A DNA stretch of 64,000 bases, from positions 36,766,001 to 36,830,000 of the forward strand of contig NC_083288.1 in NCBI RefSeq assembly GCF_963506605.1. The letters run 5' to 3'. The stretch is from Zootoca vivipara. Its lineage: Eukaryota. Below are positions 42,601 through 54,600 of the stretch, one piece after another; the first letter of the stretch is position 1, and every line of letters starts with the position of its first letter. A program made the position numbers.

Positions 42601-45600
42601 TGTAGATCCAGAATTGGCCTCCACAGTCACTTACAGACCCATTGTTAAAATCGTGTTTATGGAAGACAATCTTACTCGGCTACGAGTGATTGCCAAAGAA
42701 GAAGAAGAATAGGTAGGCATGGTTTTATTTTTAGATAGCAGTCCATGCTGCATTGTGTGAGCAAAAGTTGGCAACAGCGTGCACAAAGGCAGAACAAGAT
42801 ATTTCTTGAAAGCAGACTACTGCCAAGATGTTGCCTTCAGGGATGTGCAACCATGCTGTTGTTGAAACAACAGACAAAGGAACAAAAGGCTGAGTGTGTA
42901 CGATGTGTGGCAAAATTATTGCAGACGCATATGGCATGTTTTCCTTATAAAGCTACCTTGAAGCAGAAGCAAGTTGGGGAGGAGGATACTGCAGCTAACA
43001 GAAAGGAGCCAATGTACTTTTACAAAATCTCTGGCTTCCAATCTTTTCCTGCCTCTAGGCCACACAAACCACACATTTAAAGCACTATGATATCACTTCA
43101 AACAATCATGGCTTCCCCCAAATAATTCTGGGTGCTAAAGTTTGTTAAGGGTGCGGACAGTTTTCCAGAGGCCCCTATTCCCCACAGACAACTACAATTT
43201 CCAGAGTTCCCTGTGAAGAGGAATTTACTGTTAAACCACTCTGAGAATTGTCCCCCTGCCTTTAGAGCAACTGAAAACGTCAAATGAGAAGCCATTTATT
43301 GCTGCCTTTGTCAGAAAGGGAACTGTCCTTTTCCTTTTCTCTCTCTCTCTCTCTCTACCCCAACCCAACATTATGACTGATGATGGATCATCGTTTCCTG
43401 GGCATCATATTTATATACTTAGATTCCCAGACACTCGGATTCTCATTTGAAGACTCTGCATGTTTTAAGGATGCCTGTTACTCTCCCCTTCTTGCTGCTT
43501 ACGATCTGTGAGTATAGTTTAGCTCAATGGGGTGGGAAGTATCCATTCAGCTGGCAGAATCAGAGGGGCATTGAACTCTGGGACTGCAGCAGCATCAGCA
43601 AGAGGAAGAGAAATGGCTAGGCTACCTTAAGATGTTTTTTGCCACCTGAGGAAACCAGGGTGGATGGGTAGTTAGATGAGAGCGAGGATTTGAGTTGTAT
43701 AGACACCGTGCATTTAAAGCGCATTCAAATCCCACATGCCCCAAATAATCCTGGGAACTGTAGACATGGGATCTTGAATCAGCATTCCTGGGTTTTGGCA
43801 ATCGGCCCTTCTCTCTTTTAGCCCTGCCGAAGCCCTCCATCTTCTGGCTCCAGGCTCCGGATGCAGATGAGAAGCACCACCTCCGATGTACGGCTCAAGG
43901 GGCATATTTCGGCAGCTGGTTCTACCTGTATCAGGGAGGGAGCCCAGAGGCCGTGGCTGAAAAGAAAGCCTTGCCCACCCAATCTGAAGTGACCTTTGAG
44001 GTACACAACTTTGGACCCAGGGAGCAATTCCGCTGCAGCTATGAGATCTGGGAGGCAGGGAAGCCCATTCGCTCCCCGCTCAGCAGCCCTGCAAACATCA
44101 CAGAGGGTAAGTGTTGGGCCGTAGAACTCAATGACCATACTAGGAAGGTCATGCACAGCATTAGGCCCAAAATGGTGCATGCAAGGAGGGTTGGTGTGAG
44201 AACCAATGGTACTGTGACTGGTCTAGGAATAGGACTTTATGGTTGTGAAGGACTGTCTTAGGGCAATGATGATGGCCTTTAGCAAAGATGAGGAACCTGT
44301 GACTCTCCCAACATCGTTGGATTCCATCAGTCAGGATCTTGAGCTTGATGGAGATGACCCTGTGAGGAAGGCTAATGAAGAGGTTGATTTTTTTAAAACA
44401 CTTGTTATGATTATTTAGGCTTGCTATACATCAGGAAAATTCTTGACATGTCTTGGTTTTCGCATGGAAAAATGGCATCGGGGGAATCTTGCCGAATCTG
44501 CAATGTCAGGGAAAACCCGGGTGTTTGGCAACGCGAAGGAAAAAGCAGCAGAAACAGCTCCAAAAGCTTAAAACCACTATTTTGGGGGAGGTTTTACTTA
44601 AAAAGCTCAACAACAAGGGTTTGTTCCCAAAAAGCTGAACAATTTTGGGTCTTCCTTAAAAAAAGGTCAACTTTGTGAGTGTCAGGAATATAGCAACGCT
44701 AGGATTGCTTATACTATACACTATACTATACTTAAATGATCAAGCTGCTATGAAATGTGTGCACTTTTAACATTTAGCATTTGCAAATCATTTGTACACT
44801 TTACAGTATAGATCTATTGAGTACTATGTATTTTATAACATATGATCAAGTTTCTGGTCACTATGGAAACATAAACATTTAAGCCTCTATGAAAATTTTC
44901 ACATACATTGCTAGTATTTGTACCATTTGGTATGGTCCTGCCATGCAGCAGCAGCTGGTTATATTATTGTTTGACATACAATTGCACTGGAATGTGCATT
45001 ATCTTTGTAATTAATTGATATCTTTAATGATTGATAGTTCATTTTATGATGGCTATAAATGTTGCAATGTTCCTATAATCACACAGAGTTATTTGCTGGA
45101 TTGTCATACTATATTTTGAAATGATTTAGTATTTGAGCTATTCTAAACATATACTGATTTGCATTTTTGTTGTTCGGCTGCAAGCTGCTTTGAGCACATT
45201 TATAATATAGATGTAAATAATAAACAGACAAGCACACAAAGGCAGTATGTTTGAACCCCTTCTCTTTCCAAAGGTTTGTCACTACTGTTTTTACTGTTGT
45301 AATTTTGCATACTATGTACCTTTAAAGCACATTCGAAGCACGTTCTTAACCTCCAAGAATTATGGGCACCTTAGTTTACTACTTACAGAGTTACAATTCC
45401 CAGCACCCTTAACAAACTACAGTGCCCAGACTTCTCTGAGGGTGTGTGTGCTTAAACATGCTTTAAAGGTATAGTGTGCACAGTGGTACCTTGGTTCTCA
45501 AACTTAATCAATTCCGGAAATCTGTTCCAAAACCAAAGCGTTCCAAAACCAAGGCACACTTTCCCATAGAAAGTAAAGCAAAACAGATTAATCCATTCCA

Positions 45601-51600: not shown

Positions 51601-54600
51601 AGCATCCCTTAAGTTATATCTTTTTGTTTTCACACATCTCCTTTCCAGATGCAACTGTGGTCCCCAATTACCTGGAGGTGTTGGTGGACTCTGCAGGAAG
51701 ATATCGAGTGAATTGCTCAGTCCCTTCTGCTGCTGAGGGCTGGTTTTATCTTTACCAAGGTGGGCAGCTCTTTGCTGAAACCAGAGCTTGGCAAGATGGG
51801 GAGATTGCAAGCTTCAACCTCACAGAAGAAGCCATTAACATCACCATAGGAGAGCTGAGCTGCCAATATAAGGAATATCAGCTCAATGACACTGAAGCGT
51901 GGACACAAGGTGAGTCCAGGGGGGATGGGAGAAGTGTACACTAGCAGAGAGCTAGCCTGTGCACCTTTATTTCCCTCAAAGAATTATGGGCACTGTAGTT
52001 TATCCCTCGCGGAGTTACAATTCCCAGCAAATTACAGTGCCCATAATTCTTTGAGGGAAATAAAAGTGGTTTGAATGTGCTATAAAGGTATAGTGCACAT
52101 CCTTAGGTGACGATGATAATTGTACCATTAATGGTGCTTTACAGTATAAAAGAGGATAAGTCCCTGGTCCCAAGGAGCTTCCAATCTAAAAATGGATTTG
52201 AATATAGAAGCATAGAAGATATTGTGAAGTTGAGTGGATGCCCAGAAAATGAATGACTGGCTGGAGAATCAAACACAAGCATATTCCCACAGACAATAAC
52301 TTTGATGGGTGTGGGGTGGGTGGAACGGACAACACATACTGTTCTGTTTCGGCAGAACAAGGACAAGCAGCAAAACAAGGTTTACCACTCCATTCTTTGG
52401 TGCTGCTATCCACAGCTGGCCATTGGTATGCAAGCTGATTGATAGGTCATGCAGCATGTCTCCTTTAGCGTCGCTATTTTCCCTACATGGAAAACTCTGT
52501 AGGAAAAAGCAACATACAGCTGTATGCAAATTTTCAATTGTGGCAATCACGCGGGCATGTGTGTGGTTGAAAGGCTTTCAGGGGACAAACAGTAGGAAGC
52601 CACCATTAGTTGCTGTTTTTCCATAAAGGAACACGGCACTGGAATAATTCCATGTGATGTTTCACATCTAGACGTCATCCCCCCCCCCACACTCGACAAG
52701 TGCTTTCCACGTATGTAAAGGATTGCTGTGTGATGGTTCTGGTGGTGTCATTGTCGCCACTGGAATGTTGCCCTTTTCAGATTATATTAGCACAGATGAT
52801 TCAGGCTGTGGTGATAAGCACACTTAGCTGGGAGAAGCCCCTTTGAACAGGATGGCACTGCCAGTTAATGGCTGCCAAGGAAACCAAGCACAGGCAAGTG
52901 GATTCAAGGCAGCTCCCGTAGTGCTAGTGCCCCATTCATTTGCCGCCTGCTCAGGGGCAAGTCCATCTTCATGGGGACAGTTCTCAGGCTGCGTAGTGAT
53001 TGATGAAAGAAGAAAACCTGCTGTATACCGAAAACTATTTTTACATTGATATGCGTTTTCTAATTTCTCCAGACTCACATTCCCAGGCCACGGATTTCAC
53101 TGCAGCCAACTCACTGCGACTTGGGATCGGGGCCTGCATCTTTTTATTAGCCGTGTTCTTCATAGCTGAAGCATGGTGGAGCGAGAAGCATCAGGAGAGC
53201 TGGACCAAATGAAGGGATCCTGGATCAGCAGGATCCCACTAAGCTGATCGAGTCTGGTTTGAAACCGCAAGTTCCAGCGGCTGCTTTTGATGGGAAGGAA
53301 CATAATGATTGATTGGGAGCTGCACATGGAGATAGGCAGACTGCAATCCTCAACCAATTTTCCTCACAGTCACCACATCATGGCTCCTCTAAAGCAGGAG
53401 CTTTGGCCTACAGGGGTAAGGAACATGCGGGCCACCAGATGTTGTTGGACTCCATCTCCCATTGGCCCCAACCAGTATGGCCATTGGTCAGGGATGATGG
53501 GAGTCATAGTCCTGCAAAATCTGGCAGGCCACCAGTTTTGACCAACATAATTCAGCCCTAGATCATGTCCAGTAATTATCAAGAAGAATTTGCTCCTGGG
53601 CATGCACAGAATGCCTTTGCCTCACCAGTGAGTAACCACAATCTCAGCCTTCACACAACTGATTTCCAGAGTGACATAGACACTAGTACCTCAGGCCAGT
53701 GAGAGGAGATGATTATTTTTTCAAGTGTTTTCATCATGAAGTGTATTGCTTTCAGGCATGGTCCTGTAGTTATATACAGCTTCTGTTCTTCTGCAATTTT
53801 TTGCTGTAACTCTAGATGCTTTATTCATTTTCAGTGTTGTTCAACTCATGTTTTATAATGTTATGTCATCCAGTGCTCCAGAATAGACAAAGGGCAGGAT
53901 ATAACAATAAATGATTGAATGAATATTAACAGAAGGGAGGGACAGATTGAAATGTATGTTCTTTGTTGTTCAGAACTGGTCCTTTGTCTCCTTTTGGAAT
54001 GTTAGATAAACCACATACTACTGTGTTGGCAGAATATGAATTATGTGATAATTTTTTATTGTGTTGTTAATAAGAACCATTTAGAAAAAAGGGAGCAACT
54101 CCAAAAGAGGAGAGTTCTCTGCCTGAAGGTAGGAGGTGGGGCGGGGGTCAAGAGAAGGGGCAGCTGCAGCATATTAAAAATGACTTCCATCTCAGGTAAA
54201 ATCTGTTAGCCAGGTTTGCCTTTACTGTTTGAGGGGGGTGGTATAAATTGCTAGTTAGGGCACACTGGTGGATAGGAGTACTGTAATGATTGGTTGAAAT
54301 CACGACTGTGCAAGTGAGAGGAAGGAAAAATGCCTGTTCTGTCCTTTTAGATGCAAAATAATGGTGTGTCGTGCCAACTTAGACAATTGCCTGTTGGGCA
54401 TTTGGGGGAGGAGGATGGAAGATAAGAACTAAGAAATACATGCCTTAACAGCCAGCCTTGCTGTGAAGTAGCCTGCTTTGGCACCATTGCGTGGGGAAGG
54501 GCACGACTGGTATCAAGGGTTTGTAATGGTAGGGCCGCTGCTGAGGGACCACGCTCCTGCAGGGAACCCACTGACAAAGCATCATGGAGTGGCTGTATTG

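What the first reader, a model, noticed from the sequence alone, without database searches (positions are those of the whole stretch)
43471..53212. Mosaic three-Ig activating receptor at the OSCAR position
Seen: only Ig2 is a canonical LILR/OSCAR-type domain. Ig1 and Ig3 share an exact WFYLYQGG motif and an AE.(K/R)A...(V/A).F pattern, and both lack the DAG.Y.C motif. The TM carries N-S-L-R and the tail is short with no ITIM. Established: mammalian OSCAR and TARM1 have two Ig domains and signal through FcR-gamma via a TM arginine. Inference from recalled sequence: Ig1 and Ig3 resemble the HIDE1/C19orf38-type domain (FTLYRGGQ..VTFNL..CQY). This suggests an A-B-A' receptor built by phase-1 exon shuffling, so labelling it OSCAR or TARM1 may hide a distinct squamate receptor family.
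Basis: partly seen in the sequence, partly recalled or inferred. Interest (0 to 1): 0.7.

Follow-up and report, generated by a model that had tools for sequence, protein, structure and literature searches.

The report
Three-Ig activating receptor beside NDUFA3
This is an intact gene for a three-domain immune receptor that sits where mammals keep the collagen receptor OSCAR; it probably signals through the FcR-gamma adaptor, and only its middle domain resembles OSCAR in sequence.

Summary
On the + strand, 43471-53212 reads as a five-exon gene: leader, three Ig exons and one stem/TM/tail exon. Every junction is AG/GT and phase 1. The neighbours are NDUFA3, TFPT, PRPF31 and CNOT3, in the human order, so this is OSCAR's position (PMC9695658).

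- **Ig2:** a canonical LRC domain (Pfam Ig_2; LILRA6 5e-32; OSCAR 2.9e-18).
- **Ig1:** its only Pfam family is the HIDE1 Ig domain, above cut-off (30.7 vs 23.2 bits). It has no LRC match by sequence in the PDB, yet its model is closest to OSCAR.
- **Ig3:** short and divergent. It scores 19.3 bits against the HIDE1 model, below cut-off, and canonical Ig2 scores the same.
- **Ig1-Ig3 link:** real (z 9.0) but it rests entirely on WFYLYQGG. Without that motif z is 0.01.
- **TM exon:** it carries DFT, NSLR and a late Glu, the FcR-gamma-type TM of PMC6557307. The tail has no tyrosine.

Verdict: a lineage-specific LRC activating receptor, a new variant of a known kind. "HIDE1-type" is supported for Ig1 only, and the A-B-A' scheme is weak. 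No trees were possible because no reference sequences could be fetched.

The parts
43471..43507 (+). Exon 1: ATG and a hydrophobic leader (MPVTLPFLLLTI plus 1 nt). Donor GTGAGT, phase 1.
   Evidence: There is an A at -3 of the ATG and no other in-frame ATG upstream within the open frame. The leader is short. The only 36-nt in-phase candidate for a second leader exon (43632-43667) has weak splice sites and encodes a peptide unlike a leader. The 5' end is therefore the least certain part of the model.
43822..44106 (+). Ig1 exon (285 nt, phase 1-1), 94 whole codons, Cys22 and Cys71. It is HIDE1-type by Pfam.
   Evidence: PF17737 is its only Pfam family: 30.7 bits against a cut-off of 23.2, E 4.1e-7. 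phmmer against the PDB gives no LRC chain at E<=10. The AF2 model has pLDDT 86.2 and seven strands. In Foldseek against the PDB, the top 4 hits are OSCAR chains or entries (E 5.2e-4 to 1.4e-3, TM about 0.74), followed by CHIR-AB1 and LILRA5.
43917..43940 (+). WFYLYQGG motif, Ig1 copy (predicted C strand plus turn).
   Evidence: In the model, strand E32-37 covers WFYLYQ.
46270..46557 (+). Ig2 exon (288 nt, phase 1-1): a canonical LRC C2-type domain with FVLYQ and ADAGRYTCYY.
   Evidence: Pfam gives Ig_2 37.7, Ig_3 30.9 and ig 27.5 bits, all above their cut-offs, plus PF17737 at 19.3 bits, below its cut-off. The PDB search returns 167 chains at E<=10: LILRA6 5e-32, LILRB3, LILRB1/2, PIR-B, KIR3DL1, and OSCAR at 2.9e-18. 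OSCAR's 69.1 bits is the highest score among the two-domain chains listed, and the best stretch falls in OSCAR residues 2-96.
51649..51909 (+). Ig3 exon (261 nt, phase 1-1), 86 whole codons, Cys22 and Cys71, 4 N-glycosylation sequons. It is a short, divergent Ig domain.
   Evidence: It has a strong acceptor (long pyrimidine tract) and a GTGAGT donor. Pfam gives only PF17737 at 19.3 bits (below cut-off) and a chance-level BOFC_N hit. The PDB sequence search finds nothing relevant. The AF2 model has pLDDT 77.6 and six strands, with no G strand predicted and the last 4 residues below 50. Foldseek gives 0 hits at E<=0.001; the top hits are EMMPRIN D1 (0.011), CHIR-AB1 (0.046) and OSCAR (0.097).
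51741..51764 (+). WFYLYQGG motif, Ig3 copy.
   Evidence: 18 of 24 bases are identical to the Ig1 copy, and all 6 differences are at third codon positions.
53073..53212 (+). Last exon: a short stem, the TM segment and a tail of about 10 residues, ending in the TGA stop at 53210-53212.
   Evidence: The exon carries DFT, then NSLR (53108-53119), then a hydrophobic run, then Glu, WW and SEKHQESWTK. It has no Tyr. No Pfam family matches and there is no informative PDB match.
36577..36804 (-). Context: open frame holding an NDUFA3 exon, the nearest recognisable upstream neighbour.
   Evidence: PF14987 NADHdh_A3, 33.9 bits against a cut-off of 27.
31306..33275 (+). Context: TFPT exons, in the open frames 31306-31851 and 33021-33275.
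   Evidence: Only a weak Pfam hit, INO80F at 16.9 bits, below its cut-off. Identity with TFPT otherwise rests on my recall of the human protein.
18340..27608 (-). Context: PRPF31 exons.
   Evidence: Nop at 39.7, 68.3 and 59.4 bits, and Prp31_C at 25.6 and 30.6 bits, on 5 of the 6 PRPF31 frames sent. The first-exon frame 27315-27608 gave no Pfam family.
46..333 (-). Context: CNOT3 exon at the left edge of the window.
   Evidence: PF04065 Not3, 53.6 bits against a cut-off of 25.8.

Best explanation
The region is one intact gene of the leukocyte receptor complex (LRC). It is the only Ig-receptor gene in the window and it occupies the slot next to NDUFA3 that OSCAR holds in mammals.

It encodes a type I membrane protein with three C2-type Ig domains, each on its own phase-1 exon. 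A very short stem follows, then a transmembrane helix of the conserved 'NxxR' subtype, then a tail of about 10 residues with no signalling motif.

Inferred mechanism: the receptor has no signalling capacity of its own. The TM arginine, with the Asn three residues before it, pairs with the TM aspartate of the FcR-gamma dimer. Ligand binding would then lead to ITAM phosphorylation and Syk-type activation in myeloid cells, as for OSCAR, TARM1, GPVI, Fc-alpha-R and the activating LILRs.

The ectodomain is heterogeneous:
- The middle domain is an ordinary OSCAR/LILR-like domain.
- The N-terminal domain falls in Pfam's HIDE1 Ig family while keeping an OSCAR-like fold.
- The membrane-proximal domain is a shortened, glycan-rich, strongly diverged domain. 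It shares one exactly conserved strand motif with domain 1.

This fits the lineage-specific domain gain and divergence already described for the LRC. The gene is best called an OSCAR-position LRC activating receptor, not OSCAR, TARM1 or HIDE1.

Shown here: the gene structure, the domain classes, the TM motifs and the synteny. Inferred: FcR-gamma pairing, expression, use of all three Ig exons, and the ligand. Collagen-like ligands are the default guess, because OSCAR, TARM1, GPVI and LAIR1 all bind collagen (PMC7782728 passages).
For: Gene model:
- 5 exons, with 4 of 4 junctions AG/GT and phase 1. None of the five coding exon translations has an internal stop, and each of the three Ig exons has both Ig cysteines.
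- No other Ig-like exon is in the window. A profile of the three domains was searched against 1791 six-frame pieces of at least 25 aa. It gave the 3 exons at E<1e-37, and the next best hit was E 0.12. tblastn agrees.

Synteny:
- NDUFA3 33.9 bits; PRPF31 Nop and Prp31_C on 5 frames; CNOT3 Not3 53.6 bits.
- The human order is given in PMC9695658 and in the PMC6557307 passage that lists Ndufa3, Tfpt, Prpf31, Cnot3.

Domains: Pfam, PDB sequence searches, AF2 with Foldseek and the Atlas.

TM exon:
- PMC6557307 (passages) defines the FcR-gamma-associating LRC TM by three features: the NxxR motif, a DYT-like motif at its N-terminus and acidic residue(s) at its C-end.
- The exon has NSLR, DFT and Glu.
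- The essential role of the arginine is described for OSCAR R231 in PMC8072347 (passages).

Age of the shared motif: 6 of 8 codons differ at the third base. The identity is therefore maintained at the protein level and is not a recent conversion tract.
Against: - No transcript evidence is available, so exon usage and expression are unproven. This applies most to Ig3 and the short leader.
- The leader is only 12 residues plus one junction codon if exon 1 splices directly to Ig1. No convincing second leader exon was found.
- Ig3 is short and no G strand is predicted for it. Its model confidence is only moderate and its structural hits are weak.
- Both AF2 models were made from a 3-row alignment that included the canonical Ig2. 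This may pull them towards an LRC-like fold.
- The HIDE1 assignment rests on one profile hit. The same profile gives 19.3 bits to the canonical Ig2, so it cross-reacts with LRC domains.
- None of the 10 Atlas rows shown for Ig1, nor the 10 shown for Ig3, carries PF17737.
- FcR-gamma pairing is inferred from motifs only.
- No orthologues or reference domains could be compared.
Confidence: 0.6

Rival explanations
1. It is the true squamate orthologue of OSCAR (or of TARM1). Its outer domains have diverged, or one was duplicated, beyond recognition by sequence. The HIDE1 hit only reflects that the HIDE1 Ig domain is itself an LRC-like subtype.
For: - It has the same position relative to NDUFA3-TFPT-PRPF31. 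That its orientation relative to these genes also matches OSCAR's is my recall of the human map.
- It has an NxxR TM, which PMC6557307 uses together with clustering to call OSCAR orthologues.
- Among the two-domain PDB chains listed, OSCAR is Ig2's best match (69.1 bits).
- Ig1's model is closest to OSCAR: all 3 hits with E<=0.001 are OSCAR chains or entries.
- PF17737 also scores the canonical Ig2 at 19.3 bits.
Against: - The gene has three Ig exons, not two.
- Ig1, Ig3 and their joint profile give no OSCAR hit by sequence at E<=10, although OSCAR chains are in that library.
- Ig1 passes the curated cut-off of the HIDE1 family, which ordinary LRC domains such as Ig2 do not.
- PMC8072347 states that no reliable OSCAR orthologues have been predicted in reptiles (passage).
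- TARM1 could not be compared at all.
Confidence: 0.2
2. The mature receptor has only two Ig domains (Ig1 and Ig2). The Ig3 exon is a decaying or skipped relic in the 6.5-kb interval between Ig2 and the TM exon.
For: - Ig3 is the shortest exon (261 nt) and no G strand is predicted for it. It has the lower pLDDT (77.6) and no Foldseek hit at E<=0.001.
- It lies 5.1 kb from Ig2 in an intron that holds interspersed repeats.
- It has no Pfam family above cut-off.
Against: - The frame is open, the acceptor has a long pyrimidine tract, the donor is GTGAGT, and the phase is 1-1.
- Both Ig cysteines sit at the same positions as in Ig1, and there are four N-glycosylation sequons.
- The 8-residue motif is conserved exactly despite 6 synonymous changes, which points to selection on the protein.
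Confidence: 0.12
3. It is a non-expressed or pseudogenised LRC remnant that merely looks intact.
For: The leader is unusually short, with no good second leader exon. There is no expression evidence. LRC loci are known to carry many aberrant exons (PMC6557307 passage).
Against: None of the five coding exon translations has an internal stop, and the frame stays consistent across the four phase-1 junctions. All splice sites are canonical. The TM hallmarks are intact.
Confidence: 0.05

Closest known systems
OSCAR (osteoclast-associated Ig-like receptor, mammalian LRC)
   Same: - It holds the same genomic slot beside NDUFA3-TFPT-PRPF31.
- It is a type I receptor with phase-1 Ig exons, a TM with NxxR and a short tail lacking motifs, so FcR-gamma coupling is expected (PMC6557307 and PMC8072347 passages).
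- Ig2 matches OSCAR at 2.9e-18, and Ig1's model is structurally nearest to OSCAR.
   Different: - It has three Ig domains instead of two.
- Ig1 and Ig3 have no detectable sequence match to either OSCAR domain.
- Ig1 is classed by Pfam in another Ig family.
- Collagen binding is untested.
HIDE1 / C19orf38 (Pfam PF17737 Ig_C19orf38)
   Same: Ig1 passes the family's curated cut-off over nearly the whole profile (30.7 bits, positions 10-90 of 91). It is also the only Ig family that Ig3 touches, at 19.3 bits.
   Different: - By my recall, not tested here, HIDE1 has a single Ig domain, an uncharged TM and a long cytoplasmic tail, and in humans lies on 19p13.2 away from the LRC.
- This gene has three Ig domains, an Arg-bearing TM and a short tail, and it lies in the LRC.
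- Ig3 and Ig2 are both below the cut-off.
TARM1 (LRC, neighbour of OSCAR)
   Same: It has an activating architecture: Ig domains, a TM and a short tail without a signalling motif, with FcR-gamma association (PMC7782728 passages). It is in the same neighbourhood.
   Different: TARM1 has two Ig domains. No TARM1 sequence or structure was available to compare, so likeness at domain level is unknown.
Activating LRC receptors of non-mammals (chicken CHIR-A/AB, Xenopus LRC genes)
   Same: The NxxR-type TM is reported in LRC molecules of birds and amphibians (PMC6557307 passages). CHIR-AB1 is among the top structural neighbours of both Ig1 (rank 5) and Ig3 (rank 7). It is also the only LRC chain found by the Ig1+Ig3 profile, at E 1.1, which is not significant.
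   Different: CHIRs have one or two Ig domains (PMC4016189 passage) and are massively expanded. Here there is a single gene with three unlike domains.

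Membership tests
LRC activating receptors with the FcR-gamma-type (NxxR) transmembrane domain | At least one LRC-type C2 Ig domain | tested here: met
   Ig2 scores Ig_2 37.7, Ig_3 30.9 and ig 27.5 bits. It matches LILR, KIR, OSCAR, GPVI and NKp46 chains (167 chains at E<=10).
LRC activating receptors with the FcR-gamma-type (NxxR) transmembrane domain | TM arginine embedded in NxxR | tested here: met
   N-S-L-R lies at 53108-53119, at the start of the hydrophobic run. 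The criterion comes from PMC6557307 passages.
LRC activating receptors with the FcR-gamma-type (NxxR) transmembrane domain | DYT-like motif before the TM and acidic residue(s) at its C-end | tested here: met
   DFT lies 3 residues before the Asn, and Glu sits in ...FFIAEAWW. The criterion comes from the PMC6557307 discussion passage. DFT differs from the DYT consensus by one residue.
LRC activating receptors with the FcR-gamma-type (NxxR) transmembrane domain | Short cytoplasmic tail without ITIM or ITAM | tested here: met
   The tail is SEKHQESWTK followed by the stop. There is no Tyr in the exon. An alternative downstream tail exon was not excluded.
LRC activating receptors with the FcR-gamma-type (NxxR) transmembrane domain | Location in the LRC | tested here: met
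   It is flanked by NDUFA3, TFPT, PRPF31 and CNOT3, the conserved non-LRC group named in PMC6557307.
LRC activating receptors with the FcR-gamma-type (NxxR) transmembrane domain | Physical and functional association with FcR-gamma | not testable with these tools
   This needs co-expression and co-IP or a reporter assay. No FcR-gamma sequence of this species was at hand.
OSCAR (orthologue) | Position next to NDUFA3 in the TFPT-PRPF31 block | tested here: met
   The human order comes from PMC9695658 passages.
OSCAR (orthologue) | Two Ig domains, d1 and d2, of the OSCAR subtypes | tested here: not met
   There are three Ig exons. Only Ig2 matches OSCAR by sequence. Ig1, Ig3 and their profile give no OSCAR hit at E<=10.
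OSCAR (orthologue) | Domains cluster with OSCAR d1/d2 in domain trees | not tested
   No reference sequences could be brought in.
OSCAR (orthologue) | Collagen binding | not testable with these tools
   This needs a binding assay.
HIDE1 / PF17737 Ig_C19orf38 | Ig domain scoring above the Pfam gathering cut-off (23.2 bits) | tested here: met
   This is met for Ig1 only, at 30.7 bits and E 4.1e-7. Ig3 scores 19.3 and Ig2 scores 19.3, both below the cut-off.
HIDE1 / PF17737 Ig_C19orf38 | Whole-protein architecture: single Ig, uncharged TM, long tail (as I recall it for human HIDE1) | tested here: not met
   This gene has three Ig exons, Arg in the TM and a tail of about 10 residues. The reference architecture is recalled, not taken from a call.
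TARM1 | Two Ig domains of TARM1 subtypes plus NxxR TM | not tested
Only the TM type and neighbourhood agree.

The most novel reading that the evidence does not exclude
The gene preserves, or independently assembled, an architecture in which a HIDE1-type Ig domain sits in an FcR-gamma-coupled LRC receptor at the OSCAR locus. That would tie the poorly studied HIDE1 domain family to the LRC. It would also define a sauropsid-specific three-domain receptor family that is neither OSCAR nor TARM1. Finally, it would give the first concrete positional candidate for asking what stood at the OSCAR locus before mammals.
Probability: 0.25. Interest if true: 0.55.

Novelty: new variant of a known kind. Interest (0 to 1): 0.42.

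Why it matters
OSCAR is described as the only LRC member shared by monotremes, marsupials and eutherians (PMC6557307). Reviews state that no reliable orthologue is known in reptiles, birds, amphibians or fish (PMC8072347).

This is a single, intact, FcR-gamma-type receptor gene in exactly the OSCAR slot of a non-mammalian genome. Its domain make-up differs from OSCAR's. That makes the pre-mammalian history of the locus testable: is the slot conserved while the ectodomain is rebuilt?

The finding also warns against automatic 'OSCAR-like', 'TARM1-like' or 'HIDE1-like' labels for this gene. Lastly, it hints that the HIDE1 Ig domain is an LRC-derived subtype.

The finding is not surprising in kind, because the LRC is known for lineage-specific exon shuffling.

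Tried and rejected
- **Reference sequences:** fetching PDB chains as sequences (OSCAR, CHIR-AB1) for domain trees was not possible (error). I did not pursue this by other means, so no tree was built.
- **Ig1+Ig3 profile against the PDB:** the only hits were a Fab light chain (E 0.089, chance) and CHIR-AB1 (E 1.1). No LRC link by sequence was found.
- **Single-domain PDB hits rejected as chance:** the Fab hit for Ig1, the HIV gp120 hits for Ig3, and the neuroglobin and archaerhodopsin hits for the TM exon. The Pfam BOFC_N and DUF4662 hits were rejected likewise.
- **ESM Atlas:**
  - The first cluster listed for Ig1 (0.94) and for Ig3 (0.91) has the same description: 94 aa, 58 members, Ig_2 in 24%, Chordata.
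  - Named rows for Ig1 include IGSF1-like, KIR3DX1, FCRL2 and A1BG.
  - None of the 10 rows shown for either domain carries PF17737.
  - These are leads only.
- **Second leader exon:** 6 in-phase open candidates lie in intron 1. The only 36-nt one has poor splice sites and a non-leader peptide, so none was adopted.
- **Further Ig exons:** none by tblastn or by profile. The weak hit at 6300-6359 has no Pfam family.
- **Downstream neighbours:**
  - The ORF at 56562-56831 and 10 further ORFs between 54 and 63.5 kb gave no Pfam family.
  - The ORF at 56562-56831 also gave no PDB match.
  - The ORF at 55579-55896 gave only a sub-cut-off reverse-transcriptase hit.
  - The gene on the far side stays unidentified.
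- **Literature:**
  - Searches (HIDE1/C19orf38) found nothing on the domain's evolution.
  - Searches found no paper on a squamate LRC or an OSCAR-position receptor.
  - PMC11835228, PMC4054807, PMC4016189 and PMC10247546 (passages only) had nothing on it.
- **Left out on purpose:**
  - The exons were never joined into a spliced protein for any search, fold or alignment. There is therefore no full-length search, no whole-ectodomain fold and no signal-peptide test on the joined N-terminus.
  - Complex prediction was not used. No FcR-gamma sequence of this species was available, and a motif-based claim does not need it.
- The search for homologous proteins, the search of protein representatives, and the metagenome and viral collections. 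Orthologues in other squamates, and reference OSCAR, TARM1, HIDE1, IGSF1, A1BG and CHIR domains, therefore stayed unchecked.
- **Supplements closed:** the supplementary trees of PMC6557307 and Supplementary Figure 3 of PMC8072347 (the OSCAR TM alignment) may bear on the TM comparison.

Full report
**What is there**

On the + strand, the open frames between 43.4 and 53.2 kb and the DNA around them give a clean five-exon model, checked by script:

| Exon | Coordinates | Notes |
|---|---|---|
| Leader | 43471-43507 | 37 nt, donor GTGAGT |
| Ig1 | 43822-44106 | 285 nt |
| Ig2 | 46270-46557 | 288 nt |
| Ig3 | 51649-51909 | 261 nt |
| Stem/TM/tail | 53073-53212 | stop TGA at 53210-53212 |

All four acceptors are AG and all four donors are GT. 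All four junctions are phase 1. The window holds no N.

I never joined the exons for a search, a fold or an alignment. Whole-protein tests are therefore missing: a full-length search, a whole-ectodomain fold, and a signal-peptide test on the joined N-terminus.

I do not take the window for human.

**Position**

Pfam identifies the neighbours:
- An NDUFA3 exon at 36577-36804 (-), 33.9 bits.
- PRPF31 exons between 18.3 and 27.6 kb (-): Nop at 39.7, 68.3 and 59.4 bits, and Prp31_C at 25.6 and 30.6 bits.
- A CNOT3 exon at 46-333 (-): Not3 at 53.6 bits.
- TFPT at 31.3-33.3 kb (+). This has only a weak INO80F hit (16.9 bits) plus my recall of the human protein.

The resulting order is receptor, NDUFA3, TFPT, PRPF31, CNOT3. 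It matches the human order VSTM1-TARM1-OSCAR-NDUFA3-TFPT-PRPF31 (PMC9695658, passages) and the conserved group Ndufa3, Tfpt, Prpf31, Cnot3 (PMC6557307, passage). "At the OSCAR position" is therefore right.

It is also the only Ig-receptor gene in the window. A profile of the three domains, searched against 1791 six-frame pieces, finds only the three exons; the next best hit is E 0.12.

**The three domains**

Ig2 is an ordinary LRC domain.
- Pfam: Ig_2 37.7, Ig_3 30.9 and ig 27.5 bits.
- PDB: 167 chains at E<=10, headed by LILRA6 (5e-32), LILRB3, LILRB1/2, PIR-B and KIR3DL1.
- OSCAR matches at 2.9e-18, and its 69.1 bits is the best score among the two-domain chains listed.

Ig1 behaves differently.
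- Its only Pfam family at E<=10 is PF17737, the Ig domain of C19orf38/HIDE1. It scores 30.7 bits against a curated cut-off of 23.2, over profile positions 10-90 of 91.
- phmmer against the PDB gives no LRC chain.
- Its AF2 model has pLDDT 86.2. All 3 Foldseek hits with E<=0.001 are OSCAR chains or entries (TM about 0.74). A fourth OSCAR entry, CHIR-AB1 and LILRA5 follow.
- The Atlas places Ig1 among chordate Ig_2 clusters, including IGSF1-like, KIR3DX1 and A1BG. None of the 10 rows shown carries PF17737.

Ig3 is the odd one.
- It has only 86 whole codons and four N-glycosylation sequons.
- It scores 19.3 bits on PF17737, below the cut-off.
- It has no relevant PDB match by sequence.
- Its model has pLDDT 77.6 with no G strand predicted.
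- Its structural hits are weak: EMMPRIN D1 at 0.011, CHIR-AB1 at 0.046 and OSCAR at 0.097, with none at E<=0.001.

Canonical Ig2 also scores 19.3 bits on PF17737. The HIDE1 profile therefore cross-reacts with LRC domains at that level, and Ig3's score does not single it out.

Both models came from a three-row alignment that included Ig2. This may favour an LRC-like fold.

**How alike are Ig1 and Ig3?**

The exact WFYLYQGG is real and occurs only twice in the six frames of the window. The pairwise comparisons are:

| Pair | BLASTP | Smith-Waterman z | Shuffles reaching it |
|---|---|---|---|
| Ig1-Ig3 | 27.3 bits (E 5e-6) | 9.0 | 0 of 2000 |
| Ig3-Ig2 | 21.6 bits | 5.0 | 2 of 2000 |
| Ig1-Ig2 | 18.1 bits | 1.6 | 159 of 2000 |

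(BLASTP; shuffles.)

When the eight residues are deleted from both sequences, the Ig1-Ig3 score falls to chance (z 0.01; 960 of 2000 shuffles reach it). Overall MAFFT identities are similar: Ig1-Ig3 26%, Ig1-Ig2 25% and Ig3-Ig2 20%.

At the DNA level the two motif copies differ at 6 of 24 bases, all at third codon positions. The identity is therefore old and held at the protein level, not a recent conversion patch. In the Ig1 model the motif forms the C strand and the following turn.

The A-B-A' picture thus has one strong, narrow support and nothing else.

**Transmembrane exon**

It reads ...DFTAANSLRLGIGACIFLLAVFFIAEAWWSEKHQESWTK*.

PMC6557307 (passages) describes the FcR-gamma-associating LRC TM as the most conserved element of the family. 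[quoted passage not shown] The paper reports this TM type as far out as birds and amphibians. All three marks are present here: DFT, NSLR and Glu.

The tail has no tyrosine. The essential role of the arginine in OSCAR-FcR-gamma pairing is summarised in PMC8072347 (passage). TARM1 has the same architecture and adaptor (PMC7782728, passage).

**Most likely function**

This is an activating myeloid-type receptor that borrows the ITAM of FcR-gamma. The pairing is inferred from motifs, not shown.

The ligand is unknown. Collagen-like ligands are the default guess, because OSCAR, TARM1, GPVI and LAIR1 all bind collagen.

**Comparison and novelty**

The gene works like OSCAR and TARM1, but it fails the OSCAR membership test on domain number and on the sequence type of two of its three domains. 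It meets the HIDE1 domain criterion for Ig1 only. By recall, it fails the HIDE1 whole-protein architecture.

PMC6557307 already documents lineage-specific architectures and exon shuffling in the LRC, and warns that automatic names in non-mammals mislead. PMC8072347 states that no reliable OSCAR orthologues are predicted in reptiles.

My searches found no paper on a squamate receptor at this locus, or on a HIDE1-type domain in an LRC receptor. The library is open-access only. I rate the finding a new variant of a known kind.

**Limits**
- There are no transcripts.
No trees could therefore be built.
- The 5' end is uncertain: the leader is short, and no convincing second leader exon was found.
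- The species was not verified by any tool.

Noticed in passing
window 46-333 (-), 18340-27608 (-), 31306-33275 (+), 36577-36804 (-): A conserved non-LRC gene block, CNOT3, PRPF31, TFPT and NDUFA3, fills the left two thirds of the window. PRPF31 and TFPT lie head to head: the PRPF31 first-exon frame ends at 27608 and the TFPT frame starts at 31306.
   Followed up: yes
window 11421-12300, both strands: This is a stretch with long overlapping open frames on both strands that are rich in Pro, Gly and Arg. It lies between the CNOT3 exon and PRPF31. It looks like a CpG-island or promoter-type region, perhaps the 5' end of CNOT3. It was seen only in the ORF list.
   Followed up: no
window 8558-8830 (+), 19162-19383 (-), 49999-50154 (-): There are at least three copies of an interspersed repeat whose open frame reads ...RAFSVVAP.LWNALP..VK...FRR.LKAALFREAF. 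One copy lies inside the 5.1-kb Ig2-Ig3 intron. The repeat family was not identified.
   Followed up: no
window 55579-55896 (+) and 35632-36036 (+): These look like retroelement remnants. The first has a reverse-transcriptase hit below the cut-off (RVT_1, 18.9 bits). The second is a 135-aa open frame between TFPT and NDUFA3 with no Pfam family, which by recall resembles the end of a LINE ORF2.
   Followed up: partly
window 56562-56831 (+): This open frame contains MEKPLLEVVVRSTEEDL..., 3.3 kb downstream of the receptor's stop. It has no Pfam family and no PDB match at E<=1. Ten other ORFs between 54 and 63.5 kb also gave no Pfam family. The gene beyond the receptor is unidentified, and no TARM1- or VSTM1-like Ig exon is present.
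   Followed up: partly
window 43632-43667 (+): This is the only 36-nt in-phase open candidate for a second leader exon, the size I recall for the second leader exon of LILR/KIR genes (not taken from a call). It has a poor acceptor, a GTAGTT donor and a non-hydrophobic peptide. The receptor may make do with a 12-residue leader exon.
   Followed up: partly
window 53906, 54173, 55278 (+): The first poly(A)-signal-like hexamers after the stop are AATAAA at 53906, ATTAAA at 54173 and AATAAA at 55278. This implies a 3' UTR of about 0.7 kb or more if the first one is used.
   Followed up: no
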